NCBI GenBank assembly: GCA_024275415.1
Contig: JAJRZD010000085.1
Coordinates: forward strand, 1,727 to 33,726
Source: an archaeon
Lineage (GTDB): Archaea > Asgardarchaeota > Thorarchaeia > Thorarchaeales > Thorarchaeaceae
Direction: 5' to 3'
DNA: 32,000 bases
Shown piece by piece: positions 950 to 21,000 of this stretch. The position numbers and the translations under genes were made by a program. The notes beneath the pieces are model-generated. The model had not been told where the DNA came from. It saw nothing but the letters and a program-made list of their open reading frames with translations, and searched no databases. The stretch's first letter is position 1. Every line of letters starts with the position of its first letter.

Positions 950-1624
950 CTACAGGAGTCCCTGAGGTCTTGGATTGAATTTAAGGGAAACATATCTTGC
1001 ATCGTCAGATTCGTGCAATGATGACGCCTCGCGTCTATAACGCTCATATTCGTCCTTGCACTTGCCTTCGAGCTGGAACTTTGTGTATTTCAGTCTGATG
1101 CCATCCTTGTCCAGTTTCTCGATAAACTCCATTGGTATCAAGACATCTAGGTCGGGCAAGACCCCTATGCGTTCCAATAGTTCTGCAAATGGGTTACCAC
1201 CCGCCACAAGCCATGGTGACCCATCGATATCAAACCAGATGTCAGAAACCTTGCCGGTGTCCATGCCTTCCGAGTCGATTATCTTAAGCTTTGAGAGCTC
1301 TGAGAGTCGCATGTCTTTCTCTGTGATGGTTCCTTCATCAAGGGTCGTCTTGAGATTATCCGCATCCTCAATAATGACAGCATCCTGTGTGATCTGAGAA
1401 ATGCAATCTAGCTGGAACACTGGATCAATGTCTGGGCGGAGACCTATGGATTCCAAGAATTCTTCAATCCTGCCACCACCCAACACTATGGACTTCAGCT
1501 TGATTGTATCATCAGCATATGTGATGATGAAATCATTCACAGTGCCTGCTTCTTTGTTCTTTGCATCTATTACTTTCTTTCCCATCAAATGACTAAATCT
1601 TATTCCGCAGCATTGAAAAGGCAT
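950..1624 (-). CDS. Tandem PRC-barrel domain protein
   Basis: Two similar halves: IRFSHLMGKKVIDAKNKEAGTVNDF...GGGRIEEFLESIGLRPDID and MRLSELSKLKIIDSEGMDTGKVSDI...GGNPFAELLERIGVLPDLD, each with the PRC pattern L-x-G-x-x-V-x-D-x-x-G-x-x-x-G-x-V-x-D. Start moved from 1672 to the ATG at 1624, which has a GAGGTG RBS just upstream. Confidence 0.8.
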   Translation of the reverse strand: MPFQCCGIRFSHLMGKKVIDAKNKEAGTVNDFIITYADDTIKLKSIVLGGGRIEEFLESIGLRPDIDPVFQLDCISQITQDAVIIEDADNLKTTLDEGTITEKDMRLSELSKLKIIDSEGMDTGKVSDIWFDIDGSPWLVAGGNPFAELLERIGVLPDLDVLIPMEFIEKLDKDGIRLKYTKFQLEGKCKDEYERYRREASSLHESDDARYVSLKFNPRPQGLL

Positions 1625-1695
1625 GAATACCACCTCATTAACAATTGTGAACTCATATATAAGTTCATTCATCTAGCATTGGGACAATAGTCGTC

Positions 1696-2355
1696 CTAAG
1701 ATGGGTGGGGCTCATCCACAAGATCAAGTCTTACCTGCCTGGGTTGCCTATACAGCCCCCAGCCCTTCAAACCAGAAAGTTCGTGGGCGAATTCTTCCTT
1801 GACCTCAAAACCAAGATGCTCGTACATCTCGACGTTGCGCGAAGCGGCCGTGTCTACGTATATGCCTACTCCTTCAGTGTCGGCCAGATTGAGTACCGGC
1901 TTCAATAACTTGCTTGCAATCCCCTTCCTCTGCATCGAGGGGGACACGGCGAGCATCAGCAGATGATAACATGGGTGCTTGGCGTGTTTCCTCTCAAGTT
2001 GCCAGAACTTGAACATCACCTTGGTAGCCCTCAACCCCATAACTAGGAATGTGCTCGTGATGAGTCTGTACATGCCAAGCAAGGCACGCACTCTACGCAA
2101 CAATGGCTGTTTCCTTGTAAGATGTGGTTTCCACATGACGACTCCTTTCAGAGGATGTCCCTCCCCCATCAACCGTCCCTGTGTCCATTCTATCTCTACA
2201 AGTGCTCTATATATTTTCAGGCGCATTCCTCTTTGATCGGGAAAGGATGATAGCAGGTATCTCCAAAGAGGGTCATCTTCGAATGCATCTGCCAATATGA
2301 CCGCAGCATGAGTCAGCTCCCTCTCAGAAATCTTTCTCATCCGGGTATCACCCAT
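1696..2355 (-). CDS. GNAT family N-acetyltransferase
   Basis: Acetyl-CoA motif A VSPSMQRKGIASKLL, C-terminal RNVEMYEHLGF, N-terminal AAVILADAFEDDP typical of this GNAT subgroup. Alternative start ATG 2340 has a GGTGA RBS. Confidence 0.88.
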   Translation of the reverse strand: MGDTRMRKISERELTHAAVILADAFEDDPLWRYLLSSFPDQRGMRLKIYRALVEIEWTQGRLMGEGHPLKGVVMWKPHLTRKQPLLRRVRALLGMYRLITSTFLVMGLRATKVMFKFWQLERKHAKHPCYHLLMLAVSPSMQRKGIASKLLKPVLNLADTEGVGIYVDTAASRNVEMYEHLGFEVKEEFAHELSGLKGWGLYRQPRQVRLDLVDEPHPS

Positions 2356-2504
2356 TCCGGTAAGTCAAATCGATTATTTCTCATTTGCACAATAGATACT
2401 ATCTTTTTCTATAAGATAGACTGCCCTAACACGGGAGAACGCTCCGGTATCATAGTCGTAGTCAGAGTCATGTGCCAGCAATAGTAGCATTATGAATCCA
2501 CGCT

Positions 2505-3203
2505 CTATGTTGGCAACAGGTGCGCAGTGTTGCAATGCTCACAGACTACTGCTTCCTCCCAGTATTCTGGAAGGGGCAATGGAGCTCCACAATTCTGACA
2601 TTTTAGCTCCTTGAGGTCTGCTCGTTCTTCGGGTGTGATATCAAGCCTGAATACGTTCTCAGCAACATCACTGATTCCCTTTCCAATCTTGGCTGCTGCA
2701 CGAGCTATTGCATTGGTTTCTGTATCTGTCAGGTTTCCAAGACCAACAGATTTGAAGAATGTGTCTATCGCTGCGCCCACTTTACTGAGGAACGCCCCAA
2801 TGGTTCGGCCTCGTTTCCAATCTCGAATCGCAGCAATATGTACTTCGATCAACTCTTCGTCGGGATGTCCAGGTATCTGATATCCCTTCTTCCATGGCGT
2901 CTTCTTGTCATGCGTTGGAGAGAGGATTTGACCACAGCTGGGACATTCAAGACGGTATTCTTTAGAGAAGAACCCTTTCTTGTGCTCTTTCTCACCATGC
3001 TTGTACCAGCAACGCTTGTGAGCTAACTTACTACAATTCGGGCACGGGAACAGATAGAACCGTTCAGGTTTATGTTTGATTGTCCTGCCCGCGACATTAG
3101 GGACATATGCAAGATCCTCAGTCTTGTAAGACAATAGGTCTCGCCCGCAAATGAAGCATGGTCTGTCCTTGAACCTGTCCATTTTGTCTGCTGTGAGCTT
3201 CAT
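2505..3203 (-). CDS. Zinc-finger protein: N-terminal C4HC3 (PHD/C1-like) finger, central helices, C-terminal zinc ribbon
   Basis: C16-x2-C19-x34-C54-x2-C57-x4-H62-x2-C65-x21-C87-x2-C90, plus C-terminal CQNC-x15-CEHC. GAGG RBS upstream. Confidence 0.75.
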   Translation of the reverse strand: MKLTADKMDRFKDRPCFICGRDLLSYKTEDLAYVPNVAGRTIKHKPERFYLFPCPNCSKLAHKRCWYKHGEKEHKKGFFSKEYRLECPSCGQILSPTHDKKTPWKKGYQIPGHPDEELIEVHIAAIRDWKRGRTIGAFLSKVGAAIDTFFKSVGLGNLTDTETNAIARAAAKIGKGISDVAENVFRLDITPEERADLKELKCQNCGAPLPLPEYWEEAVVCEHCNTAHLLPT

Positions 3204-3236
3204 CGTGAATCCTCAAATAGAGGTGGACGCCGAGTG

Positions 3237-3252
3237 CTTTTAAGGTATTTTG
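3237..3252 (-). promoter_or_regulatory. Putative BRE/TATA promoter for the zinc-finger gene
   Basis: Minus strand CAAAATAC-CTTAAAAG ends about 34 nt upstream of ATG 3203, the usual archaeal spacing for a short leader. Confidence 0.45.
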
Positions 3253-3272
3253 ACGGGGATGCCTGAATCGAG

Positions 3273-3686
3273 CTATCTACTTTCCAAAACTGCACGAATC
3301 GAGTCGGCTGCCTTCTCCAGTGTCTTCCACACTTTCTTGTCGTCAATTCTTTTGAAAAAGAGGAATCTTCCGTTTCGGATTTCGGCCCCAATCCTAAACC
3401 ATCGGTTCCTAACCTTGAACTCGTGGACTGTGATGGACACACCTGACCCTTTGATTGTCGAGATTCGTGGATGATCATACCCCAGATTCTCATTTACCCT
3501 GCGCGATGTATCCGAAAGCAGAGATATCATTGCAGCCAATCTATCCCTCTGGACTAGATCTCTAGCTCTTCCCGCAACAACAAGACCTTGCTCATTGGTC
3601 ACGACGCAGTTCTTGAATGCGTAGCCAATCTCGCTCTCAAAGTCCTTGAGCACAAGGTCTAGCTTCTCAGATTTTCCCAAGCTCAT
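3273..3686 (-). CDS. Roadblock/LC7 domain protein (divergent)
   Basis: Helix, then NCVVTNEQGLVVA, helix DRLAAMISLLSDTSRRVNENLG, beta strands and a terminal helix, matching roadblock topology. ORF track start is GTG 3695; ATG 3686 follows an AGGTG RBS. Confidence 0.8.
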   Translation of the reverse strand: MSLGKSEKLDLVLKDFESEIGYAFKNCVVTNEQGLVVAGRARDLVQRDRLAAMISLLSDTSRRVNENLGYDHPRISTIKGSGVSITVHEFKVRNRWFRIGAEIRNGRFLFFKRIDDKKVWKTLEKAADSIRAVLESR

Positions 3687-3697
3687 GATTGTCACAC

Positions 3698-4159
3698 CTA
3701 TGTCATGGACTCCTCATGTAACCTGACTTCCCAAAGGCGAACGACCTCCCGGATTTCCTGTCTCAAGTTCTCAATCTCGAATGATATCAAACCGAGCTCC
3801 AAATCACGTGGGAAGATGCAAGCCAGCATTACATTCTCAGCGAGATGCTTCAAAAGGATCGAAAACGAAACCATGCCTGCATCTTCTGCTTCAATTATTA
3901 CCTGTCCAAAGCTCTTAGTGTTATTGACAAGTTTGATGAAGTCTTCTGAGATCGTGATAAGTCCAGCTGACATGCTACTGATTACAGTTTCAATGTTCTC
4001 AGGCATTGATTCATTGTTGTGTCTATGACCTAATACATATCCATCGACAGTGAAGACTGTAAGGGCCCAGACTGGTAATCTGCGGTTAAATTCCATCAGG
4101 AGCTTTCTAATCTCCAATACAGGGGGAATTATGCTCTTCTCTTGATACAACGTATTCAC
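3698..4159 (-). CDS. Roadblock/LC7 (MglB-like) domain protein
   Basis: ALTVFTVDGYVLG, SSMSAGLITISEDF, QVIIE and a C-terminal LGLISFEI helix. Starts 3 nt after the GTPase stop; alternative start TTG 4150 after AGGTGA. Confidence 0.82.
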   Translation of the reverse strand: MNTLYQEKSIIPPVLEIRKLLMEFNRRLPVWALTVFTVDGYVLGHRHNNESMPENIETVISSMSAGLITISEDFIKLVNNTKSFGQVIIEAEDAGMVSFSILLKHLAENVMLACIFPRDLELGLISFEIENLRQEIREVVRLWEVRLHEESMT

Positions 4160-4162
4160 CTA

Positions 4163-4831
4163 TCATATCTGCTGAAATGGGAGTGTGGACTCTTCGGGTG
4201 TCCTAGAAGTACGATTCATGAGGACACCCTCTATTTTTCTGAGAAGCAGAATCAATGCATCTTTGCATGACTCTTTATCCTTCGCTGACATCCCTATGGT
4301 TTCTCTCACTCCAAGCCATGTAGAGACTTGGAATGGATAAGCACTTTCAGGCAAGTCCTGCTTGTTGGCAATCACCACCATAGGCAGGTTACCAAACGCA
4401 GCTAACGTTTCTGCTAGAATGGCAGATGCATCACCTATCATTGCTGGATCCGAAGAATCCACAATTAGCAGTACACCATTGGAGTTAATGCGCATTGTGT
4501 CACGAACGAACTTGAAATGCAGCTGCCCTGGTACCCCACGGAGTTCTACCTCCTTTGCGAGCCACGCATAGTACTCGTCTCGTTCTCTCAGGAACTCGTT
4601 CTTCGGAATGATCAGACCTGCTGATTCCGCTGACTTCCTTGCCCATATGACTCTGCCAAGGTCAAATCCTGTGGTAGTCGTACTCTCTTCCCCACGATAT
4701 TGATCTCGCAGCTTCCGTTCGACCGATATCGTATCTGGGTCTAGAGTATGAATCATCGTTGTTTTTCCGGCCTGAAACGGGCCAGTCACATAGACTTTAT
4801 AGTCATATGATCGGAGGTTATGCACTGCCAT
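4163..4831 (-). CDS. Small GTPase, MglA/CvnD-like (prokaryotic Ras-like) family
   Basis: G1 GPFQAGKT, G2 region STTTTGFDLG, G3 GVPGQ (no Asp, as in the GTPGQ family), G4 NKQD, G5 MSAK. Flanked by roadblock genes. Confidence 0.9.
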   Translation of the reverse strand: MAVHNLRSYDYKVYVTGPFQAGKTTMIHTLDPDTISVERKLRDQYRGEESTTTTGFDLGRVIWARKSAESAGLIIPKNEFLRERDEYYAWLAKEVELRGVPGQLHFKFVRDTMRINSNGVLLIVDSSDPAMIGDASAILAETLAAFGNLPMVVIANKQDLPESAYPFQVSTWLGVRETIGMSAKDKESCKDALILLLRKIEGVLMNRTSRTPEESTLPFQQI

Positions 4832-4880
4832 CCTACATTCTTCCTATTCTACTGTTTTCAAAGTCAGCCGTCGTCTTGAC

Positions 4881-5243
4881 TTACAGGATATCCTCCACAC
4901 TCGCTACTGCCTTTTCCATCTCAAAGTCGATGAGACCGATTTTCGCTTCTTTGGGCGCAGTGGCAATCAAAGAGGAATTTGAGAGCTTGCGGACAATGAC
5001 TGTTTTGGACTCGCCCTCGATCGTGATAGTCTTTGGCTTACCGGATTTCAAGGCTGCACCCACTCTGGTTCCAATGGAAACCAGTGCAGCAGCCATGGCT
5101 GAGATAGCCTTGTCATCAACACCTTTATGGAGTGCAGCGACCATCATCTGGCCTCTGTCACTGACCAATGCGCAACCATCGACTTCACTGTCAGCTTCGA
5201 GTTGCTTGAGTATCGTTTCGAGTTTCTTGATTTTTGCACTCAT
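4881..5243 (-). CDS. Roadblock/LC7 (MglB-like) domain protein
   Basis: Canonical pattern GCALVSDRGQMM, DKAISAMAAALVSIGTRVGAAL, TITIEG, AKIGLIDFEM. Start moved to ATG 5243 (GGAGGT RBS at 5250-5255); the extension to 5324 overlaps another ORF. Confidence 0.9.
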   Translation of the reverse strand: MSAKIKKLETILKQLEADSEVDGCALVSDRGQMMVAALHKGVDDKAISAMAAALVSIGTRVGAALKSGKPKTITIEGESKTVIVRKLSNSSLIATAPKEAKIGLIDFEMEKAVASVEDIL

Positions 5244-5254
5244 CCTTATACCTC

Positions 5255-5377
5255 CTATTTCTCGTAATGTGGGCAAGTGTCTTTTTCTTCGGCTGGGACA
5301 TAGAGCTTCTTCTTTTCGCACCAAATCAGCCCTGCAGCGTTAGATTCACCTGCATGTTTACAATCACAACTTGCCAT
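5255..5377 (-). CDS. 40-aa Cys/His-rich microprotein, probable metal-binding; not in the ORF track
   Basis: Translated by hand: MASCDCKHAGESNAAGLIWCEKKKLYVPAEEKDTCPHYEK*. ATG is 7 nt after the V4R stop with GAGGGAG upstream, and its TAG overlaps the RBS of the next roadblock gene. Confidence 0.7.
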   Translation of the reverse strand: MASCDCKHAGESNAAGLIWCEKKKLYVPAEEKDTCPHYEK

Positions 5378-5384
5378 ATCTCCC

Positions 5385-5852
5385 TCACTCCAAAGACACA
5401 GTGAAGATTGATGCGTTCAGCTCTGGTCTGTAAAGAGCGGATTCGACGACACAGGTCTTACCGAGTTTCTCATTCAGTGATGCATATAGAATAGCCATCA
5501 TCGGACAGGGAGGGATTTTTGTGACATCATCACCGCGGATTATCTTCGTGGCTGATGAGTAGATACACTCCCCGATATCGATTTTTATCCTGTCTTCACT
5601 CACTTCCAAGATTTCGCAGCGTTGAACAGCACCAGATTTCTTGATTTCCTCTTTAAATGACTCCACGATAGACTGTACATCATTCCCTTTGATGTCTAAG
5701 CCGAGAGATCCCAATAGCCCTTTAGCCTCGTTCTGAAAGGCAGATGCTATTTGCGTCCAAATTAAAGGTATGTTAAGTCCCATATTTGTCATAGCTGATG
5801 CAACTGCAACCATGACGGCATTGCTAGCGTCCATGAGCTGTCTGTATTCCAC
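5385..5852 (-). CDS. V4R / MetOD1-like small ligand-binding domain protein
   Basis: Helical N-terminus, then EILEVSEDRIKIDIGECIY...PPCPM...terminal beta strands, the V4R-superfamily pattern with conserved Cys. GTG start 9 nt after an AGGAG RBS. Confidence 0.68.
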   Translation of the reverse strand: MEYRQLMDASNAVMVAVASAMTNMGLNIPLIWTQIASAFQNEAKGLLGSLGLDIKGNDVQSIVESFKEEIKKSGAVQRCEILEVSEDRIKIDIGECIYSSATKIIRGDDVTKIPPCPMMAILYASLNEKLGKTCVVESALYRPELNASIFTVSLE

Positions 5853-6098
5853 CGTAATTTTCTCCTGTTCTGCCCAAGCGGAATGGGCTAGTTATGCATA
5901 TGTCTGATTATTTCATATATATGATTAATTTGGATATATCTAAAATTATGGAATGATAGTAAATAAAATGCAGTAATAAACTGGTTTGTCTATTATCTCA
6001 CTGGAGTGATGTGCCTTTTCAGCCCTGTCAGTTTAGTCGCATCTGACATTTAGTGTAATCTGTGTACACGCTTCAGATGGTACACAGCCATTGTGAAT

Positions 6099-6623
6099 TC
6101 ATTCTAACTCGGATGTCTTAGACAAAGCCTCTGATGCAATTATCTGTCTGAGGTACTTTCGAATATGATCAAGATTCCTTTCTGTTTCTTTTTGAAGCCA
6201 CGCCAGCGAACTCCTTTCCTCAAATTCGCTGTCATCCATGGATAATCTCATCCCCTCTATCTCTCTCAAGAGGCCCTCTAGTTCTATTGACACTCTACGC
6301 ACTGCAAACATAACAATTCCAGAAATTCCATCGGTGAGTTCGTACAGAACAGGCCGGCGTCCAGGACCAGAATGACTTGTAATGACTCTACTCTCAATAA
6401 ACCCAAGGCTTTTGAGCTGGGAAACTGCAACACTTATGCTACCACGAGAGTATCCAGTGAGTTCGACAAGATCGTCGGTTGATAGCGGTTTGTGTGTCCA
6501 ATAGAATTCAACCAAGAGTGAAGAAAGGATGTCCCTTGCTGCATCAGAAAGCCCAATCCACTGCAGATGTTTCCTGATGATTCTGTGAAGGTTTCTATAG
6601 GCCATTGAGTCGTGTTGCACCAT
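6099..6623 (-). CDS. Winged-helix transcriptional regulator (GbsR/MarR-like)
   Basis: HTH LSTDDLVELTGYSRGSISVAVSQLKSLGFIE, wing PGRRPVLYEL, and a long C-terminal coiled helix. Confidence 0.85.
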   Translation of the reverse strand: MVQHDSMAYRNLHRIIRKHLQWIGLSDAARDILSSLLVEFYWTHKPLSTDDLVELTGYSRGSISVAVSQLKSLGFIESRVITSHSGPGRRPVLYELTDGISGIVMFAVRRVSIELEGLLREIEGMRLSMDDSEFEERSSLAWLQKETERNLDHIRKYLRQIIASEALSKTSELE

Positions 6624-6825
6624 ATCTTACCACAGCTATTGAATACCAGAAAATCACATTTATATCTTATTATTCTATTACATTAAAAAAATAAAAAATA
6701 ACAAGTAACAAACAGAACAATTCAAGCTGACACAGTTCAAACCGAATAGGGCTAAATACAGTTCGTACACAATCAAACCGACACTTTAACGATGCAAAAT
6801 GTTTACCACTGGTGAGAGAAGGCGC

Positions 6826-14299: not shown

Positions 14300-16965
14300 T
14301 TGTAATGCATCCTCTCTTGGCCTTTGCCTTTAGAGGTCGTCACAAGACAATACGTATCCTTCTCATAGCTGTGCTTTTGTCTGTGCCTATAGTGACACTT
14401 ACGTCATCTGACTATCTGACTCTTTCAACACTTCGAGATATTGAGAATGATATGTTGTTGGTTGTACAAGTTTCACATACCGATTTGAACTTGTTTCTAT
14501 CGTCGCTAGAGAGTCTACAGCAGAACACCGACCTCCGGAATGTCAGCGCTTTAAGCTTCACATTTCTTCATGACACTTGGCTTGTCGCCCCAGAAGGTGC
14601 GACAGGTACAACTATTGCCCTAATCGGGCTGGAGAATTGGATCAGTCCAGATGATGTGGTCGCAACTGACTCGTATACGGCAAGGCAATTGAATCTGAAA
14701 CTTGGTGACAAGGTGAATCTCACAGATACAGAGAACAAGTTCAACAAAACCTATACATTAACGACTGCTCCTGAACTAACCGAGTATCAAAACGCACTCA
14801 TTACTGAATTAGAACAATCCTCGCTTTTAACAGGAGAATCTTTTGGATCCCGCTTGTACGGGTCGCTTCCGTTTCTCTATTCTGAATCGCTCGACATTTT
14901 GACAAAGATTGAACTTTATCCAATGGTTTCTGTGAATTTGGTAGTCTTTGCTTATCTGCGACAAGGAATCACCACTGGGACGTTCTCACAAATCAGTGAT
15001 AATGTAAACTCGATTGTTGAATACGTGACTACCTCTTTGTCTGGCGTCGGAAACGTGAAAACTCTCAGGGATCCACGTTCTCGATTGGAGTCGGTTCGCC
15101 TTGCTTATGATCAACTAGAATGGAGTCTCCAGACAATAACTCTCCCAAGTATTGCCGGCTGCATGGTGTTTCTTTTCGTCGCTGCATGGATTCACTTTGA
15201 GGGGATTGCAACAGAGCGTCATCGTTTGGCTGCACGAGGCGTTTCAAAAGAGCAGTTTGTTGCTGCCAATTTGCTAGAATCAGCAGTTATCGGAGGTTTG
15301 GGAGGGCTGCTCAGCATCCCGGCTGGTGCGTTCCTCTCAATGATCGCATTTGGATTCTCTCCCACAGAATGGATCACTTGGTCTGATATTTTGTGGCAGA
15401 ATCCAAGTTTCACAATAGGAATCACAGTCATCCTATCTGTAACCATCTCCCTGATTGCAGCTTACGAAGCACTCAAGTCATTAGATGTCACACGAAAGGC
15501 GGTTTTGAAGACTACCTCGGGAATCATCGGTATTTTAGTCCTGCTTGCTGTGTTTACCGATATAACTCTCGGGTTTCCAAGTTTGCTTTTTGTACGTAGT
15601 TTGAGTTCAGGTATTGACAATCTGACGGCTGACTTTGTTATCAACGCACTTGCATTACTCGAACTAGTTATGTTCGTGTTAACACCAGTTCTGGCACCAC
15701 TTTTCGTTTCTCGTGCTTATCCGAGCTGGAATCGGCCATTTCGAAAAGTTGTGTCCAAGCTTCTAAAAGTGGATGTTCTCGTTACAAAATCCGTAACGGC
15801 TAAGAAGACTCGTCGTTTTCGTTTTGTGTTCTTGGCGATGATCATCGCTTTTATTCTAAGTGCACCAATCCTTGCATATTCTGCACATGAGTCAATGAAG
15901 AGCGCAGACCAACGTCTTGTTATCGGGGGCGACCTCAAGGTCACACTCTATGGGCTCAATACAACATTCTCTAGCAGGAATTTAACCTCGGCACTATCTT
16001 CTATTGAGGGAATCTCAACGGTAGCGTGGGCTGGTGAGCTACAAGTGCTGGCTGGTTTTGCCCGTCCTCTCCTCGAAAGTTCCTCGCTACTCGTTGTGTC
16101 GGATGAGTACTTTCAATTGAACATGGTACGAGAATACTTTTCCGAAGTCCCCCCATCTGCAATCTTGAGCGAATCGTTGGCTAAGACAGTCGAGAGTCCT
16201 TCAAGTGTTTTTGTTGAGATTTCAAATAATGTTGCAGCTCTCAACGTATCAGGTTTCTTCCAGTTTGCACCAGGTTTTCACCATTCACCACTTCAGTTTC
16301 AAAAACTCGACAATGCTGTCCTAATGACCTTAGCCTATTATGAAACTCAGTTGGGCACTCTTAACACCTCTACCTCGCAGTTGGTTGTTGATGTCCAAGA
16401 TGGCTATCGCTTCAACGAAGTGACTGCCCAAGTATTCAGTCTACTGAACACAACCATAGGCGACCCGAGTAGATTCTCAATCACGACATTTAGTAGTGAT
16501 GCTCTCCTTGGTGTTGAGTACCGGATTGCAATTGCCGCACAAGCATTTCTAGTTCTTGTGGGAACTATAGCATTAGGTTTCGTGATAAGTCTGGATGTCC
16601 GTAATCTTAAGCCTGAAGCCACAACACTTTGGCTTCGCGGAGCCTCACACAGGCAAGTTATCATAGGGATTCTCATCGAAGAGGTCGGAGTTCTCATACC
16701 AACTTTCTTCTTTGGACTTCTCACCAGTTTCAGCTACTACTATGGATTGTCCATCGTATTCCTGCTCCTGCTCGATTCCTCAATAACAAGATTGCCACAG
16801 GGCTATATCATTCCAATCCCCATGGTTCTTGTTGTGATACTGCTCTTTCTATTCATCACATTGGCAATTACAACATTGATAGAGGTAAAACGCTGGAGTA
16901 CAGTTCAATATAGTCGGGATGTTGAGGTCTTAGCCTATCGAGATGCTGACAGAACACGGTCATGA
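14296..16965 (+). CDS. Second FtsX/MacB-like ABC permease with two FtsX modules
   Basis: Same architecture as 10898..13606, with motifs ERHRLAARGVS and EATTLWLRGAS and shared GGDLKV/GSDMQI and FAPGF segments. 4-nt overlap with the ATPase stop. Confidence 0.85.
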   Translation: MIVMHPLLAFAFRGRHKTIRILLIAVLLSVPIVTLTSSDYLTLSTLRDIENDMLLVVQVSHTDLNLFLSSLESLQQNTDLRNVSALSFTFLHDTWLVAPEGATGTTIALIGLENWISPDDVVATDSYTARQLNLKLGDKVNLTDTENKFNKTYTLTTAPELTEYQNALITELEQSSLLTGESFGSRLYGSLPFLYSESLDILTKIELYPMVSVNLVVFAYLRQGITTGTFSQISDNVNSIVEYVTTSLSGVGNVKTLRDPRSRLESVRLAYDQLEWSLQTITLPSIAGCMVFLFVAAWIHFEGIATERHRLAARGVSKEQFVAANLLESAVIGGLGGLLSIPAGAFLSMIAFGFSPTEWITWSDILWQNPSFTIGITVILSVTISLIAAYEALKSLDVTRKAVLKTTSGIIGILVLLAVFTDITLGFPSLLFVRSLSSGIDNLTADFVINALALLELVMFVLTPVLAPLFVSRAYPSWNRPFRKVVSKLLKVDVLVTKSVTAKKTRRFRFVFLAMIIAFILSAPILAYSAHESMKSADQRLVIGGDLKVTLYGLNTTFSSRNLTSALSSIEGISTVAWAGELQVLAGFARPLLESSSLLVVSDEYFQLNMVREYFSEVPPSAILSESLAKTVESPSSVFVEISNNVAALNVSGFFQFAPGFHHSPLQFQKLDNAVLMTLAYYETQLGTLNTSTSQLVVDVQDGYRFNEVTAQVFSLLNTTIGDPSRFSITTFSSDALLGVEYRIAIAAQAFLVLVGTIALGFVISLDVRNLKPEATTLWLRGASHRQVIIGILIEEVGVLIPTFFFGLLTSFSYYYGLSIVFLLLLDSSITRLPQGYIIPIPMVLVVILLFLFITLAITTLIEVKRWSTVQYSRDVEVLAYRDADRTRS

Positions 16966-17353: not shown

Positions 17354-18004
17354 TTGTTTGAGATGATTCAGGAGCCTGACCGCGGTTCATCAATCTCTAA
17401 GGTGCTTGTACATGTACTGGTTCCAGGCGAACCAGATGCTGAAAGCAAAGATGGACTGTCTGAGCGAGGAAGGAGTCAAGTATTTGAGCTTGCCCGATCA
17501 CGACTACTGGCCGCCCCTGCTAAGATATATTCGTCAAAGTCCAAGGATTGTGTGACTACTGCGGATATACTTGTGAAAGAGCTATTCTCCTCCTTATCCA
17601 TTCGAGATTGTCTAGATGAAGTCGACCTGGATGCGAAGGCACTCGATGATGCATTCCTTCGAAATGAAATGCCTAAAATCTGGGATGATTTTGACTATTC
17701 ATATGGTTCAGGCGAGAGTCTTCAAACAGGACGGGCGAGAATCTCATCGTGCATCAACGCTCTTGTGAAACTGCATCCCGACTCGACAATTGGAGTGGTT
17801 CTTCCTCCTATCGCTTCAGTACTTTTCTATCGACTCGTTGTAGGTGGCTCTCCTCAAATTGAGGACTGGCTCTACCTTGGTTTTGCCTCTTGTACTACCT
17901 ATGAATACTCGAAGAACGGCTGGACGCTCGTAATGCCCCCCGAAAATAGTTTTCTTACTGAGCCTTCAACAGTGATAGACATATTGCCATCAGGGATTTT
18001 CTAA
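17354..18004 (+). CDS. Histidine phosphatase (phosphoglycerate mutase) fold protein lacking catalytic residues
   Basis: Scaffold motifs GLSERGRSQ, KIYSS-x4-CVTTA, L-x-E, GESLQTGRARI are present; RHG is replaced by VPG. GGAGG RBS 7 nt before the TTG. Confidence 0.75.
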   Translation: MFEMIQEPDRGSSISKVLVHVLVPGEPDAESKDGLSERGRSQVFELARSRLLAAPAKIYSSKSKDCVTTADILVKELFSSLSIRDCLDEVDLDAKALDDAFLRNEMPKIWDDFDYSYGSGESLQTGRARISSCINALVKLHPDSTIGVVLPPIASVLFYRLVVGGSPQIEDWLYLGFASCTTYEYSKNGWTLVMPPENSFLTEPSTVIDILPSGIF

Positions 18005-18009
18005 TTCTG

Positions 18010-18042
18010 AAAAAAAAAGAAAGAGGGAGGGAAGTCCTCCCT
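18010..18042 (-). terminator. Hairpin plus poly-T terminator of the large surface-protein gene
   Basis: Minus strand AGGGAGG-ACTTC-CCTCCCT followed by CTTTCTTTTTTTTT, starting 10 nt after the stop at 18053. Confidence 0.75.
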
Positions 18043-18052
18043 TGACATTAAA

Positions 18053-21000
18053 CTACCGTCGCCGTCTGATAAGGACACACGCAATGACAACGACCACAAG
18101 TACACCGGCAACCATGACCATTAGACCTGCGTTTCCGCCGCCACCTGTTGGGATGCTGCCGGTACCAGTGTCAGTACCTGTGATGGTGCCAGTTGTGGTC
18201 GTATCAGTCGTACCTAATGGTGTCTGCTGGGCACTCGTGTACGACACGAACACTGGGTCAACGCGAACCTCCTGACCACCCCAATGGGTGTAACCTGCTG
18301 TCATGAACAGCATGGAGGCGTCCACGTTCCATTGTGTGACAGACTCACCAGACTCAGATTCGTACATGACGCTGAATGCGCCGATGGGAACAGTAGATGA
18401 TCCAGAGGTATAGTTGGTGGAATATCCGTCGCCCGCCCATGTGTAGGGCATTCCGCCCATCGACACATTAGCGAAGGGACTGTCCTCAGCACCGAATTCA
18501 TAGTAGTCAGCCGTCAGGCTCTCACCATTGGTGTCAGTGACAGGCTGTTCTCCTGCAGTATATTCTGTCCGAGTTGCAGTGCCCAAGATGCCAAAGAAGT
18601 TCACTGCGAGCCCTCGGTCATCAAGAACCGAATCGTCGAACTCCTCTAGATCCCAGTCACCTATCTTCTGGTCAACCTTGAAAGCGACTGCATGGTTCCA
18701 TGTCTGCTCGTCCTCGGGGTCGTACTGAACCATGTCCACACTAAAGGTGATGTCGAATGCCATCTCAGTGATGTTGGCATGGGTGATCCAGTAGTCGAAG
18801 TTGGTCCTGTTCAGTCCCAACGCGCCCTCATAGGACTCGCGGAACGCCCAGGGCCCACGAAGGCCATCGGAGTTCTCGACCTGTAACGGATAGAGGGTCA
18901 CCGACACGTTGTAGATCGAGATACCAAATGTGACAGTGGTGTTCGCATCTACCGTGACATTGCCTGTGTCGTTGGTCGCACCGAATGGTCGTCGAAGCTC
19001 AAGCGATTCGATGTCATCAATCAGGACGACATGAGTGACCTCGTCCGTCTGGATCTCACCTTCCTCGATTTCAAAGTCTGGAGCTTGGTTCGGCTGTAGT
19101 GGACCGTTACCATCTGGATCGAGATCATTGAAGATGAGCATGCCAGCATACTCGGCCTGGAATCCTGCGTAGGTAGCACTTGTGGCACTTGTCGCGACAT
19201 TGAACCACTGGTTTGTGCCCCATGCGAACCATGAGGTCTTCCAGTAGTTGCTGTCGAGACCTGTGATTGCGCTAAGGTCGATGGTACGGTTCTTGGAGAG
19301 CCATGCTACCCAGAGGTATCCTGGTGCTGCGATCTCGTTGTCGTAATCCGCCCACATGGTTTCCTGAACATTTGCCATCTCTGACGAGTTCAGCTTGGAG
19401 AAGTCAGAGGCATGATACCAGTAGAAGGTCTCATTTGCCTTGAACTCGACCTCGAGTGTGGCGACGCCCATCCAGCTGTTAGAGTGGAACTCATCGCCAT
19501 CCTCACCTGGGGATGGGTCGAACAGGACTCCTACCCACATACCTTCGACAGTCGTGTTGCCCCAGCTGTCAAAGTAGCCTGTACGCTTGACAAAGTACTG
19601 GTCTTCAGTGGTGAACACATTGCCATCAAGATCGATAGCACCGTCCTCAGTGACTGTCCACTTCTGTGGATCCCACATTGAAAGGTTGCCAATGATTAGA
19701 TGTGCGGGGCTCCATATCATCTGATTTGAATCAAACTCTTGGAATGTTGAGCCAGATACATCTGGATTTGTGAAATTCATTGTATTCGGATACATGACGA
19801 AGTTGTTCAGTCCTGCTTGCGAGATGTTTAACTGCCATGCCTGACGAACACCTGAAACCATCCGAACTTCGTCTATCTTCATTGCAGGCGTGTCATTTGC
19901 GAATTTGATGTCGAAATTCAATGCCAATTCATTGTTCCCAATTGAGAAGTTGTGATTTAGAATGATAATAAAGTCATCAATCTCATTTAGGGTGTAGCTG
20001 ATGAATGTGCCATTGAACCAGTACATCCATTCTTCCACACTAGAATTGACGTATGATAGGTCATTCTTCATATCTAAAGTGATGTTCTGTTCGGCACGAA
20101 CACGCCATCGATGGGTCTCGTTGTTCATAATTCCCTCGGAAGAGAAGGATAAGGTAATGTTGTCTCTGATAGTCGTTACATTGACACCCGCGATGTCATA
20201 TAACGTGCCATCAACATCAACATTTGTCCAATTCAATGGAATATAGACAGTTCCGTTGATTTCCTCTGTTGGCGCATGGACAATCAAAGACATATTGAGG
20301 ATATCGCCAGGGTCAGCCCGTCGAACCACCTCGCCATTCATCCGCACAAATCCTTCCATGAAGGCGTCTTTGAATCCAAGCCTCACGGTGTGATGAAGAT
20401 CAATCTCTGGACGAGCATAAAGGGGTTCACTGTTCGTGTCGTTAACCGCCCATAACCAGGGCTCTCCCTTTATGGTTCCACCGCTCTTCATTTGATCTGG
20501 GTTCATATCCGTGAAATTAGTATATTGCCCAGTCCAAGAGATGAGTGCACCTGAATGTTTGACATTGACATCAGTTGAAATATAGAACTTTGTCAAGTCA
20601 ACTGTTTCATTAACTTGAAAGTCTATCGTAGGAACCCATTGCATGATCTGTGTGTTCCAACTCCAAGATACATCTTGCATGTAACTCACAGTGGCATATG
20701 CATTTGTTCCATTGTACACAAACGTTAGCAGCGGCCACGCCTCAGTAACAGGCGTCCAGCCAGTGAGGAATCTTCGATAGTCATTAGGCATCGCATAGGA
20801 TACACTTTGCTTATACTTCGGGTCAAATGTGATGTATGAGAATGGAACCTTCACTTCACCAAACTCGACGTTGGCAGAGATCTGGAATGTGAAATTATCA
20901 TAGGCATCCACATAGTGAAGGATGTTACCATCGTTGTCGATCACCTCGGCATAATAGCGTTCTGGCAATGCAAAGTGACCTACATTCACCTCTTTCCCAA

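What the first reader, a model, noticed from the sequence alone, without database searches (positions are those of the whole stretch)
2505..5852. Seven-gene small-GTPase signalling module: V4R, microprotein, roadblock, GTPase, two roadblocks, zinc-finger protein
Seen: co-oriented genes with gaps of 7, 11, 49, 3, about 2-11 and 69 nt. Known: MglA/MglB in Myxococcus and CvnD/CvnB in Streptomyces conservons pair this GTPase family with one roadblock GAP; eukaryotic Rag/Ragulator uses roadblock heterodimers; V4R is related to the TRAPP Bet3 fold; Asgard genomes are known to be rich in all three families. Inference: three distinct roadblock paralogs could form heterodimeric GAP/scaffold units, with the V4R protein as ligand-sensing input and the zinc-finger protein as output. 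That would make a complete sensor-switch-effector circuit in one locus. The parts are known; this combination, to my knowledge, is not described.
Basis: partly seen in the sequence, partly recalled or inferred. Interest (0 to 1): 0.75.

Follow-up and report, generated by a model that had tools for sequence, protein, structure and literature searches.

The report
Conserved Asgard GTPase, roadblock, V4R operon
A Thorarchaeota (Asgard) genome carries a six-gene operon, kept in the same order across several Asgard families, that links one MglA-type small GTPase to three different roadblock proteins, a sensor-fold (V4R) protein and a 40-residue cysteine microprotein, so it names likely partners for an archaeal G-protein switch; the zinc-finger gene beside it is only a neighbour.

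Summary
The seven co-oriented genes and their gaps (7, 11, 49, 3, 2 or 11, 69 nt) are real.

**Six genes form a conserved module.**
- Their order is V4R-fold protein, 40-aa three-Cys microprotein, Robl1, GTPase, Robl2, Robl3.
- This order recurs in Thorarchaeota and in three other Asgard families. A fifth family splits it into two divergent units.
- The GTPase carries the MglA group 2-5 signature: G3 is GxPGQ without Asp, and G2 is TT. It is not an Arf, despite public names.
- Robl2 and Robl3 are true roadblock relatives (profile-profile probability 96-97%).
- The first gene has the V4R/Bet3/H-NOX fold only by structure prediction. It has no Pfam hit.
- The microprotein follows the V4R gene in 23 of 23 copies. 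Complex prediction gives weak support for binding (0.57; best control 0.00).

**The zinc-finger gene is not part of it.** It is in 60 of 76 genomes of the same family, most of them without the module. In two congeners it sits beside a PRC-barrel gene with no module nearby.

**Recurrent neighbours** are MarR-like regulators and PAS sensors or kinases, which recalls the actinobacterial conservon.

**Verdict:** a new variant of the MglA/MglB (conservon-like) kind. I found no published description. Earlier notes of this scan describe a similar multi-roadblock Asgard cluster on other DNA. No biochemistry exists.

The parts
5385..5852 (-). V4R/Bet3/H-NOX-fold protein (155 aa), first gene of the module; Asgard-restricted family without a Pfam model hit
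   Evidence: No Pfam or NCBIfam hit. Only 17 homologues, all unnamed. AF2 model has pLDDT 85. Foldseek best matches are the PoxR/MopR/DmpR phenol-sensor domains, TRAPPC3 and H-NOX, then M. jannaschii V4R-type proteins (MJ0758, TM 0.70) and TRAPPC3/5. C96 and C116 are invariant; orthologue consensus has four Cys, the window copy three.
5255..5377 (-). 40-aa microprotein with three invariant Cys (C6, C20, C35) and a W-C-x-K-K motif
   Evidence: Conserved at the same position in 10 related loci, with extra copies in 5, and in distant families. It directly follows the V4R-fold gene in every copy seen. His8, His37 and Cys4 of the window copy are not conserved. Called as a 'hypothetical protein' in public annotation. 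Complex prediction with the V4R-fold protein gave weak support (score 0.57, best control 0.00).
4881..5243 (-). Robl1, canonical MglB-type roadblock/LC7 protein (120 aa)
   Evidence: Pfam Robl_LC7 at 35.1 bits against a cut-off of 23. The profile hits solved Asgard roadblock proteins (E 3.5e-20), cvnB5, MglB and LAMTOR2. Orthologues are 62-83% identical and start at the same Met.
4163..4831 (-). MglA-type small GTPase (222 aa): G1 GPFQAGKT, G2 TT, G3 GVPGQ (no Asp), G4 NKQD, with a roughly 30-residue insert between strands beta2 and beta3
   Evidence: Pfam ATP_bind_1 and Arf are both above cut-off. Motifs are invariant across 37 family members. AF2 model has pLDDT 89. Best structural match is MglA (Z 20.6, rmsd 2.8, 171 aligned), tied with Arl2/3 and Rab8. 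Nearest Atlas clusters are CvnD-type and MglA.
3698..4159 (-). Robl2, divergent roadblock paralogue (153 aa) with a conserved C-terminal tail (W143, L147, H148 invariant) and an invariant D39-G40 pair
   Evidence: No Pfam hit. hhalign against the Robl1 profile gives probability 96.4%, E 1e-9. The profile hits PDB Robl_LC7 7f8m (E 6e-6) and MglB. A 3-nt gap follows the GTPase stop.
3273..3695 (-). Robl3, most divergent roadblock paralogue (140 aa)
   Evidence: Pfam Robl_LC7 at 17.4 bits, below the cut-off of 23. hhalign against Robl1 gives probability 96.8%, E 2e-10. The profile hits PDB 9jue roadblock and cvnB5. Always the gene after Robl2.
6099..6623 (-). MarR-like winged-helix protein (174 aa); recurrent upstream neighbour, probably its own transcription unit (246-nt AT-rich gap)
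   Evidence: Weak MarR_2 and TrmB hits below cut-off. Homologues flank the module in 11 of 20 loci and in the own-genome paralogue.
6799..9012 (+). REC-PAS-PAS-HATPase hybrid histidine kinase, divergent from the MarR-like gene; belongs to a class of recurrent neighbours
   Evidence: Pfam hits. PAS-domain proteins or kinases lie next to the module in 10 of 20 loci, in the congener locus L039 and in the distant family f9.
2505..3203 (-). Cys-rich zinc-ribbon protein (232 aa): adjacent here, but NOT part of the conserved module
   Evidence: Found in 60 of 76 genomes of the same family and none outside it. It sits next to the PRC-barrel gene with no module nearby in congeners G257 and G203. It is missing from 17 of 18 related loci.

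Best explanation
SHOWN. Positions 3273-5852 (minus strand) hold a six-gene module that is restricted to Asgard archaea as far as my searches reach. Its order is V4R-fold protein, three-Cys microprotein, Robl1, MglA-type GTPase, Robl2, Robl3. The order is conserved. The GTPase has the MglA group 2-5 catalytic signature. All three small proteins around it are roadblock-family members, and each forms its own orthologue group.

INFERRED. The GTPase is a nucleotide-dependent switch. Its GTP hydrolysis and/or nucleotide exchange is controlled by dimeric roadblock platforms, as MglB controls MglA. The most likely platforms are a Robl2-Robl3 heterodimer (always adjacent, tightly spaced after the GTPase gene) and a Robl1 dimer, which would pair with a fourth, Robl1-like paralogue where one is present. 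The conserved C-terminal tail of Robl2 may act like the MglB C-terminal helix. The V4R-fold protein together with the microprotein would be the input unit, sensing a small ligand, metal or redox state through cysteines, and would couple to Robl1, from which it is never separated. The output probably runs through the MarR-like winged-helix regulators and PAS sensors or kinases that recur beside the module. That would make the whole a conservon-like signalling system. The zinc-finger gene downstream is an unrelated neighbour.
For: - **Gene order.** The core Robl1-GTPase-Robl2-Robl3 is in 17 of 18 related loci (L017 lacks only the upstream Robl1 hit) and in the paralogue on another contig. The full six-gene order is in 10 of those loci, in congener locus L038 and in families f24, f27 and f28. 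In family f9 it is split into V4R-micro-Robl1-Robl2' and GTPase-Robl2'' on opposite strands.
- **GTPase.** Across 37 sequences G3 is GxPGQ, G2 is TT and G4 is NKxD. This matches the published signature of MglA groups 2-5 (PMC4316618). The top structural match is MglA bound to MglB. The nearest Atlas clusters are actinobacterial CvnD-type and MglA.
- **Roadblock identity.**
- **V4R fold.**
- **V4R and microprotein.** They are adjacent in 23 of 23 copies, including one locus (L035) with no GTPase within the 7 kb read. Complex prediction gave weak support: score 0.57 against a best control of 0.00, with the runs agreeing in 100% of contacts and partner pLDDT at least 77. That mark was reached by 58 of 80 solved complexes and 2 of 110 mismatches, but scores of 0.60 or under are weak.
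- **Co-occurrence.** 24 of the 25 genomes with a strong V4R-fold hit also have a Robl2-like gene.
- **Neighbours.** MarR-like genes and PAS proteins or kinases recur.
- **Precedents.** 1:2 MglA:MglB systems and the conservon are known (PMC4316618). An AF3 model of a Thorarchaeota MglA-MglB pair has been published (PMC13408092).
Against: There is no biochemical or expression evidence. Which roadblocks pair with which was not tested, and no heterodimer was modelled. The V4R-fold protein has no sequence-model match to V4R, and the window copy has only three of the four Cys found in most orthologues, so metal or ligand binding is uncertain. The complex score is in the weak band. PAS, kinase and MarR genes are common in these genomes and are not invariant neighbours (about half of the loci), so their role as output is the weakest step. 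The module is patchy: by the Robl2 marker it is in 41 of 301 Asgard genomes sampled, and in only 1 of 5 other genomes of the same genus. It is therefore accessory.
Confidence: 0.6

Rival explanations
1. TRAPP-like reading. The V4R/Bet3-fold protein, the microprotein and the roadblock (longin-related) proteins form a structural exchange-factor platform for the GTPase. This would resemble eukaryotic TRAPP, where Bet3-family subunits flank a longin heterodimer that activates Rab1. The V4R-fold protein would then be a scaffold subunit, not a ligand sensor.
For: The fold matches TRAPPC3, TRAPPC5 and Trs31 (TM 0.5-0.68). An Atlas neighbour cluster is a Thorarchaeota TRAPP-domain cluster. In family f9 the V4R-micro-Robl1-Robl2' genes form their own unit opposite GTPase-Robl2'', as expected for a separate regulator complex. 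Roadblock and longin platforms bind GTPases in a conserved orientation (PMC10933270).
Against: The best fold matches are prokaryotic V4R sensor proteins (MJ0758 at TM 0.70, and the PoxR phenol sensor), not Bet3. The GTPase is MglA-type, not Rab-like. The partners are roadblocks, not longins. No interface was modelled.
Confidence: 0.2
2. Polarity reading. The module is a spatial regulator like Myxococcus MglA/MglB/MglC. It would position a cell-surface, cytoskeletal or membrane machine rather than relay a chemical signal to transcription.
For: It belongs to the same GTPase family and has roadblock partners. Several roadblock dimers (MglB, MglC) act on one MglA in Myxococcus (PMC9481161 abstract). 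Asgard cells have complex morphologies (PMC10933270).
Against: No motility, pilus or cytoskeleton genes recur next to the module in the 20 loci clustered; the recurrent neighbours are regulators and sensors. The signature is that of groups 2-5, and group 1, which lacks it, is the one that holds the polarity MglA proteins.
Confidence: 0.15
3. The first reader's seven-gene circuit, in which the zinc-finger protein is the dedicated effector or output of the GTPase.
For: It has the same strand and a gap of only 69 nt with no obvious terminator. ZnF and module lie on one contig 5-20 kb apart in three other genomes, and 4 kb apart in locus L021.
Against: The ZnF is in 60 of 76 genomes of the family, most of which lack the module (22 of 76 have Robl2), and in none of the other families that have the module. 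In congeners it keeps its PRC-barrel neighbour and has no module beside it.
Confidence: 0.05

Closest known systems
MglA/MglB systems, groups 2-5 of Wuichet and Sogaard-Andersen 2015 (PMC4316618), including 1:2 MglA:MglB systems
   Same: A single-domain Ras-superfamily GTPase with G3 GxPGQ (no Asp) and TT in G2, encoded next to roadblock (MglB-type) genes. More than one roadblock gene per GTPase is known.
   Different: There are three (in some loci four) distinct roadblock orthologue groups per GTPase. A V4R-fold protein and a Cys microprotein are obligate companions. The lineage is Asgard-only. There is a roughly 30-residue insert between beta2 and beta3.
Actinobacterial conservon (CvnA kinase, CvnB roadblock, CvnC DUF742, CvnD GTPase)
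   Same: A multi-gene signalling cassette built around an MglA-family GTPase and a roadblock protein, with a sensor kinase and a further small protein. The nearest non-Asgard Atlas clusters of the GTPase are actinobacterial CvnD-type.
   Different: No DUF742 protein is present; a MarR-like winged-helix protein takes that place. G4 is NKQD, not the NxFD of group 2. The kinases are soluble PAS or REC types and are not invariant. There are extra V4R, microprotein and roadblock genes.
Eukaryotic TRAPP core (Bet3-family subunits plus a longin heterodimer, a Rab GEF) and Ragulator-Rag (roadblock heterodimers)
   Same: A Bet3/V4R-fold protein, roadblock/longin-superfamily platform proteins and a small GTPase are combined in one functional set. 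Several non-identical roadblock proteins suggest heterodimers, as in LAMTOR2/3 and LAMTOR4/5.
   Different: The GTPase is MglA-type and lacks the C-terminal roadblock domain of Rag GTPases. There are no longin subunits. The V4R-fold protein resembles prokaryotic sensor V4R proteins at least as much as it resembles Bet3. This is an analogy of parts, not shown homology of the complex.
Published Asgard operon: LAMTOR1-like roadblock + Rab-like GTPase + DENN protein (Liu et al., bioRxiv 10.1101/2020.10.19.343400)
   Same: An Asgard gene neighbourhood that couples a small GTPase to a roadblock-superfamily protein.
   Different: The GTPase family differs, there is no DENN protein, and the partner set differs.

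Membership tests
MglA family, groups 2-5 (PMC4316618) | G3 motif GxPGQ, lacking the Asp of DxxGQ | tested here: met
   GVPGQ in the window. G99, P101 and G102 are invariant and Q103 is at least 90% conserved in 37 sequences.
MglA family, groups 2-5 (PMC4316618) | Thr instead of the intrinsic Arg finger next to the G2 Thr | tested here: met
   T52 and T53 are invariant.
MglA family, groups 2-5 (PMC4316618) | Coupled to an MglB-type roadblock gene within four genes | tested here: met
   Three roadblock genes lie directly beside it.
MglA family, groups 2-5 (PMC4316618) | The roadblock dimer binds the GTP form and stimulates hydrolysis | not testable with these tools
   Needs purified proteins.
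Arf family (public name 'ADP-ribosylation factor-like protein') | DxxGQ G3 motif with Asp, and an N-terminal amphipathic helix | tested here: not met
   There is no Asp in G3. Residues 1-10 are coil with low pLDDT in the model. The Pfam Arf hit covers only residues 115-177.
Actinobacterial conservon | CvnC-type DUF742 protein in the cassette | tested here: not met
   None of the 10 proteins scanned at E up to 0.1 hit DUF742. The upstream protein gives weak MarR_2 and TrmB hits.
Actinobacterial conservon | Group 2 GTPase with an NxFD G4 motif | tested here: not met
   G4 is NKQD.
Actinobacterial conservon | Sensor histidine kinase encoded with the cassette | tested here: inconclusive
   A REC-PAS kinase lies divergent in the window. 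PAS proteins or kinases are found in about half of the loci. They are not invariant.
Roadblock/LC7 (MglB-type) | Match to the Robl_LC7 model or to profiles of solved roadblock proteins | tested here: met
   Robl1 is above the Pfam cut-off. Robl3 is below it and Robl2 has no hit. Both match the Robl1 profile at 96-97% probability and match PDB roadblock chains.
V4R domain (PF02830) / Bet3 fold | Sequence match to the V4R model | tested here: not met
   No Pfam hit at E up to 0.1. hhalign against the XylR_N+V4R protein of the paralogous locus gives probability 0.4%.
V4R domain (PF02830) / Bet3 fold | The fold itself: N-terminal helices plus a beta-beta-alpha-alpha-beta-beta core | tested here: met
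   The AF2 model has pLDDT 85. The top matches are PoxR/MopR/DmpR, TRAPPC3 and H-NOX, then MJ0758 at TM 0.70.
V4R domain (PF02830) / Bet3 fold | Four-Cys zinc site, as in Thor-TRAPPC3 (PMC10933270) | tested here: inconclusive
   C96 and C116 are invariant. The third and fourth Cys positions vary, and the window copy has three Cys. The geometry was not examined.
Ragulator-Rag | GTPase with its own C-terminal roadblock domain, forming a heterodimer | tested here: not met
   The protein is 222 aa, a single G domain with a helical end.

The most novel reading that the evidence does not exclude
The invariant trio of V4R-fold protein, Cys microprotein and Robl1, with the further roadblocks, is an archaeal counterpart of a TRAPP-type exchange factor: a Bet3-fold subunit on a roadblock/longin-type platform, acting on an MglA-type GTPase. 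The microprotein would supply cysteine ligands to a shared metal site, so that the switch responds to metal or redox state. This would be the first defined regulator-GTPase pairing of this kind in the closest prokaryotic relatives of eukaryotes.
Probability: 0.15. Interest if true: 0.85.

Novelty: new variant of a known kind. Interest (0 to 1): 0.62.

Why it matters
Asgard genomes encode dozens of small GTPases, roadblock, longin and TRAPP-like proteins, but which ones act together is largely unknown. Tran et al. 2024 (PMC10933270) state that in the cultured strain MK-D1 GTPase genes are generally not in operons with such genes, which makes partners hard to predict. This module is an exception. 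It is conserved across several Asgard families and names a concrete set of six proteins that can be expressed and tested together: a GTPase, three non-redundant roadblocks, a sensor-fold protein and a microprotein. It would extend MglA/MglB-type switches from one or two roadblocks to three or four. It also puts a Bet3/V4R-fold protein into the same unit, which bears on how TRAPP- and Ragulator-like platforms arose.

Tried and rejected
- **ZnF as part of the module:** rejected on distribution and on synteny in congeners.
- **GTPase as an Arf:** rejected on motifs. Structure alone cannot separate MglA, Arl and Rab, because the Z scores are tied within 1.
- **Microprotein as a Cys/His zinc finger with six ligands:** only three Cys are conserved, and the His residues and Cys4 are not.
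- **Microprotein as 'hidden' or unannotated:** it is called as a hypothetical protein in public records, including this genome's.
- **Sequence link between the V4R-fold protein and the XylR_N+V4R protein of the other module types:** none found (hhalign probability 0.4%). The recurrence of a V4R-class partner there rests on Pfam for that other protein, where XylR_N is above cut-off and V4R is below it.
- **Solved Asgard roadblock structures (7f8m, 9jue):** they are only about one-third identical to Robl1, so they are other paralogues.
- **Expression:** no sequencing run was listed for this stretch, so co-transcription could not be examined.
- **Complex prediction:** my one job went to the V4R-microprotein pair. 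No roadblock-roadblock or roadblock-GTPase model was made.
- **Literature:** searches for a prior description found none. The library does not hold most subscription-journal papers.
- **Earlier scan note e1-2301237:** a sequence look-up did not link it to this family, because the word method needs about 60-70% identity.

Full report
**Observation.** One search lists seven co-oriented minus-strand ORFs at the stated coordinates.
- The 120-aa roadblock gene starts at the ATG at 5243, as in all its orthologues.
- The longer TTG-started frame that reaches 5324 overlaps the 40-aa gene at 5255-5377.
- The gaps are 7, 11, 49, 3, 2 (or 11) and 69 nt.
- The window is part of contig C66 of a 3.5-Mb genome that is 93% complete.

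**What the genes are.**

*Robl1* passes the Pfam Robl_LC7 cut-off (35.1 bits against 23).

*Robl3* scores below the cut-off and *Robl2* has no hit.
- Profiles built from their orthologues match the Robl1 profile at 96.8% and 96.4% probability (E 2e-10 and 1e-9).
- The same profiles hit solved roadblock proteins, MglB and cvnB5.

*The GTPase* passes the Pfam cut-offs for both ATP_bind_1 and Arf.
- In an alignment of 37 family members the P-loop, a TT pair in G2, GxPGQ in G3 (Gly in place of the usual Asp) and NKxD are invariant or nearly so.
- Wuichet and Sogaard-Andersen give exactly this as the signature of MglA groups 2-5. These groups include the conservon GTPase CvnD and the archaeal group 4 (PMC4316618).
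- The AF2 model (pLDDT 89) is most similar to MglA bound to MglB (Z 20.6). That score is tied with Arl2, Arl3 and Rab8 within one Z unit, so the fold alone does not decide.
- Language-model neighbours are CvnD-type actinobacterial clusters and MglA clusters.
- The public names 'ADP-ribosylation factor-like' and 'SRP receptor beta' are therefore misleading.

*The first gene* has no Pfam or NCBIfam hit and only 17 unnamed homologues.
- Its AF2 model (pLDDT 85) matches the V4R-type phenol-sensor domains of PoxR, MopR and DmpR, and also TRAPPC3 and H-NOX.
- It also matches the M. jannaschii V4R-type proteins, with MJ0758 at TM 0.70.
- It is V4R/Bet3 by fold, not by sequence model.

*The 40-aa ORF* is a real gene. 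It is conserved at 45-65% identity, with invariant D5, C6, G10, G16, W19, C20, K22, K23, Y26 and C35. It is called as a hypothetical protein in public annotation.

**Conservation.**
- In 18 loci from other genomes the order Robl1-GTPase-Robl2-Robl3 is kept wherever the contig reaches, except that L017 lacks an upstream Robl1 hit. The paralogous locus of the same genome keeps it too, with proteins 49-72% identical.
- Ten of those loci also have the V4R-fold gene and the microprotein gene in the window's order.
- Other loci replace these two genes with a MarR-like gene, or with an XylR_N+V4R protein, and may add a fourth, Robl1-like roadblock.
- With profile HMMs the full order V4R-micro-Robl1-GTPase-Robl2-Robl3-like is found in three further Asgard families.
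- A fifth family has two divergent units: V4R-micro-Robl1-Robl2'-(a larger protein with a Robl3-like domain), opposite GTPase-Robl2''.
- The V4R-fold gene is followed by the microprotein gene in all 23 copies read. One of these is a locus with no GTPase within the 7 kb read (L035).
- In the divergent family a copy of the microprotein motif also forms the C-terminus of a 502-aa HEAT plus GNAT-like protein.
- In a sample of 301 Asgard genomes the V4R-fold protein was found in 30 and Robl2 in 41. Of the 25 genomes with a strong V4R-fold hit, 24 also have a Robl2-like gene, usually 1-2 kb away.
- The module is patchy. Only one of five other genomes of the same genus has it.

**The zinc-finger gene.**
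- It was found in 60 of 76 genomes of the same family and in none outside that family. This is a different distribution from the module.
- In congeners G257 and G203 it lies next to the PRC-barrel gene, as it does in the window, with no module nearby. G257 carries its modules on two other contigs.
- It is a neighbour, not a component.

**Neighbours that do recur.**
- MarR-like winged-helix genes occur in 11 of 20 loci.
- PAS-domain proteins or kinases occur in 10 of 20 loci, and also in L039 and in family f9.
- The window has both: a MarR-like gene at 6099-6623, and a divergent REC-PAS kinase at 6799-9012.
- A 246-nt AT-rich gap separates the MarR-like gene from the V4R-fold gene.

**Mechanism.** Most of this is inference; the Best explanation section sets it out step by step. 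By family membership the GTPase should cycle between GTP and GDP forms under the control of roadblock dimers, as MglA does with MglB.

Three points suggest non-redundant platforms:
- the three roadblocks form separate, old orthologue groups;
- Robl2 and Robl3 are tightly coupled downstream of the GTPase gene;
- some loci add a fourth roadblock.

I read these platforms as a Robl2-Robl3 heterodimer and a Robl1-based dimer. Robl2 has a conserved C-terminal tail with invariant W143, L147 and H148. It could act like the MglB C-terminal helix discussed in PMC13408092.

The V4R-fold protein and the microprotein probably form one unit:
- Complex prediction gave weak support: score 0.57 against a best control of 0.00, runs agreeing in 100% of contacts, partner pLDDT at least 77.
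- That mark was reached by 58 of 80 solved complexes and 2 of 110 mismatches, but scores of 0.60 or under are weak.
- The strict adjacency made binding likely beforehand.
- V4R-related domains fused to a rubredoxin-like module exist elsewhere, which is a loose parallel.

I read this unit as the input, and the flanking regulators and kinases as the likely output. That makes the system conservon-like. It fails the conservon membership tests, however: there is no DUF742 protein and no NxFD G4 motif.

**Novelty.**
- I found no description of this operon.
- Tran et al. 2024 say that GTPase genes of MK-D1 are generally not in operons with roadblock, longin or TRAPPC3 genes.
- Liu et al. describe a different operon: LAMTOR1-like, Rab-like and DENN.
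- PMC13408092 modelled one Thorarchaeota MglA-MglB pair.
- Earlier notes of this scan report a similar multi-roadblock, Bet3-like, kinase-linked Asgard cluster on other DNA (e1-2301237) and the paralogous cassette in this genome. The scan has therefore seen this kind before.
- The parts are of known kinds. What is new is the conserved six-gene combination and the microprotein.

Noticed in passing
own genome contig C57 (locus L008 5822-10225): A paralogous module: MarR-like, Robl1, GTPase, Robl2, Robl3, an 89-aa ORF and a second winged-helix protein. The proteins are 49-72% identical to the window's. It has no V4R-fold or microprotein genes, but a divergently oriented XylR_N+V4R protein lies at 5822-6481.
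   Followed up: partly
L027 6985-8493 (distant Asgard family f9): The microprotein motif (D-C-K-Y ... W-C-x-K-K ... C) forms the C-terminal 40 residues of a 502-aa HEAT-repeat plus GNAT-like protein. That protein is encoded just after the GTPase-Robl2'' unit and before a PAS histidine kinase.
   Followed up: partly
L035 3058-3647 (genome G112, same order): The V4R-fold gene and the microprotein gene occur as a pair, with no GTPase or roadblock gene in the 7 kb read. The pair can therefore stand alone.
   Followed up: no
window 950-3203: The PRC-barrel gene (950-1672) and the zinc-ribbon gene (2505-3203) are neighbours in two congeneric genomes as well. In the window a GNAT acetyltransferase gene (1696-2355) lies between them.
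   Followed up: partly
window 4881-5324: A TTG-started extension of the Robl1 frame overlaps the microprotein gene. Several related loci show similarly over-long Robl1 ORFs (148-168 aa) in a mechanical ORF list, so automated start calls may differ between genomes.
   Followed up: partly
window 9384-16965: A 443-aa ORF is followed by two ORFs of about 900 aa flanking a 230-aa ORF. Other first-stage notes call this a secreted-protein gene plus an FtsX/MacB-type ABC cassette. I did not examine it.
   Followed up: no
window 18001-19000 and 23001-26000: GC content rises to 0.50-0.53, against about 0.45 elsewhere in the window.
   Followed up: no
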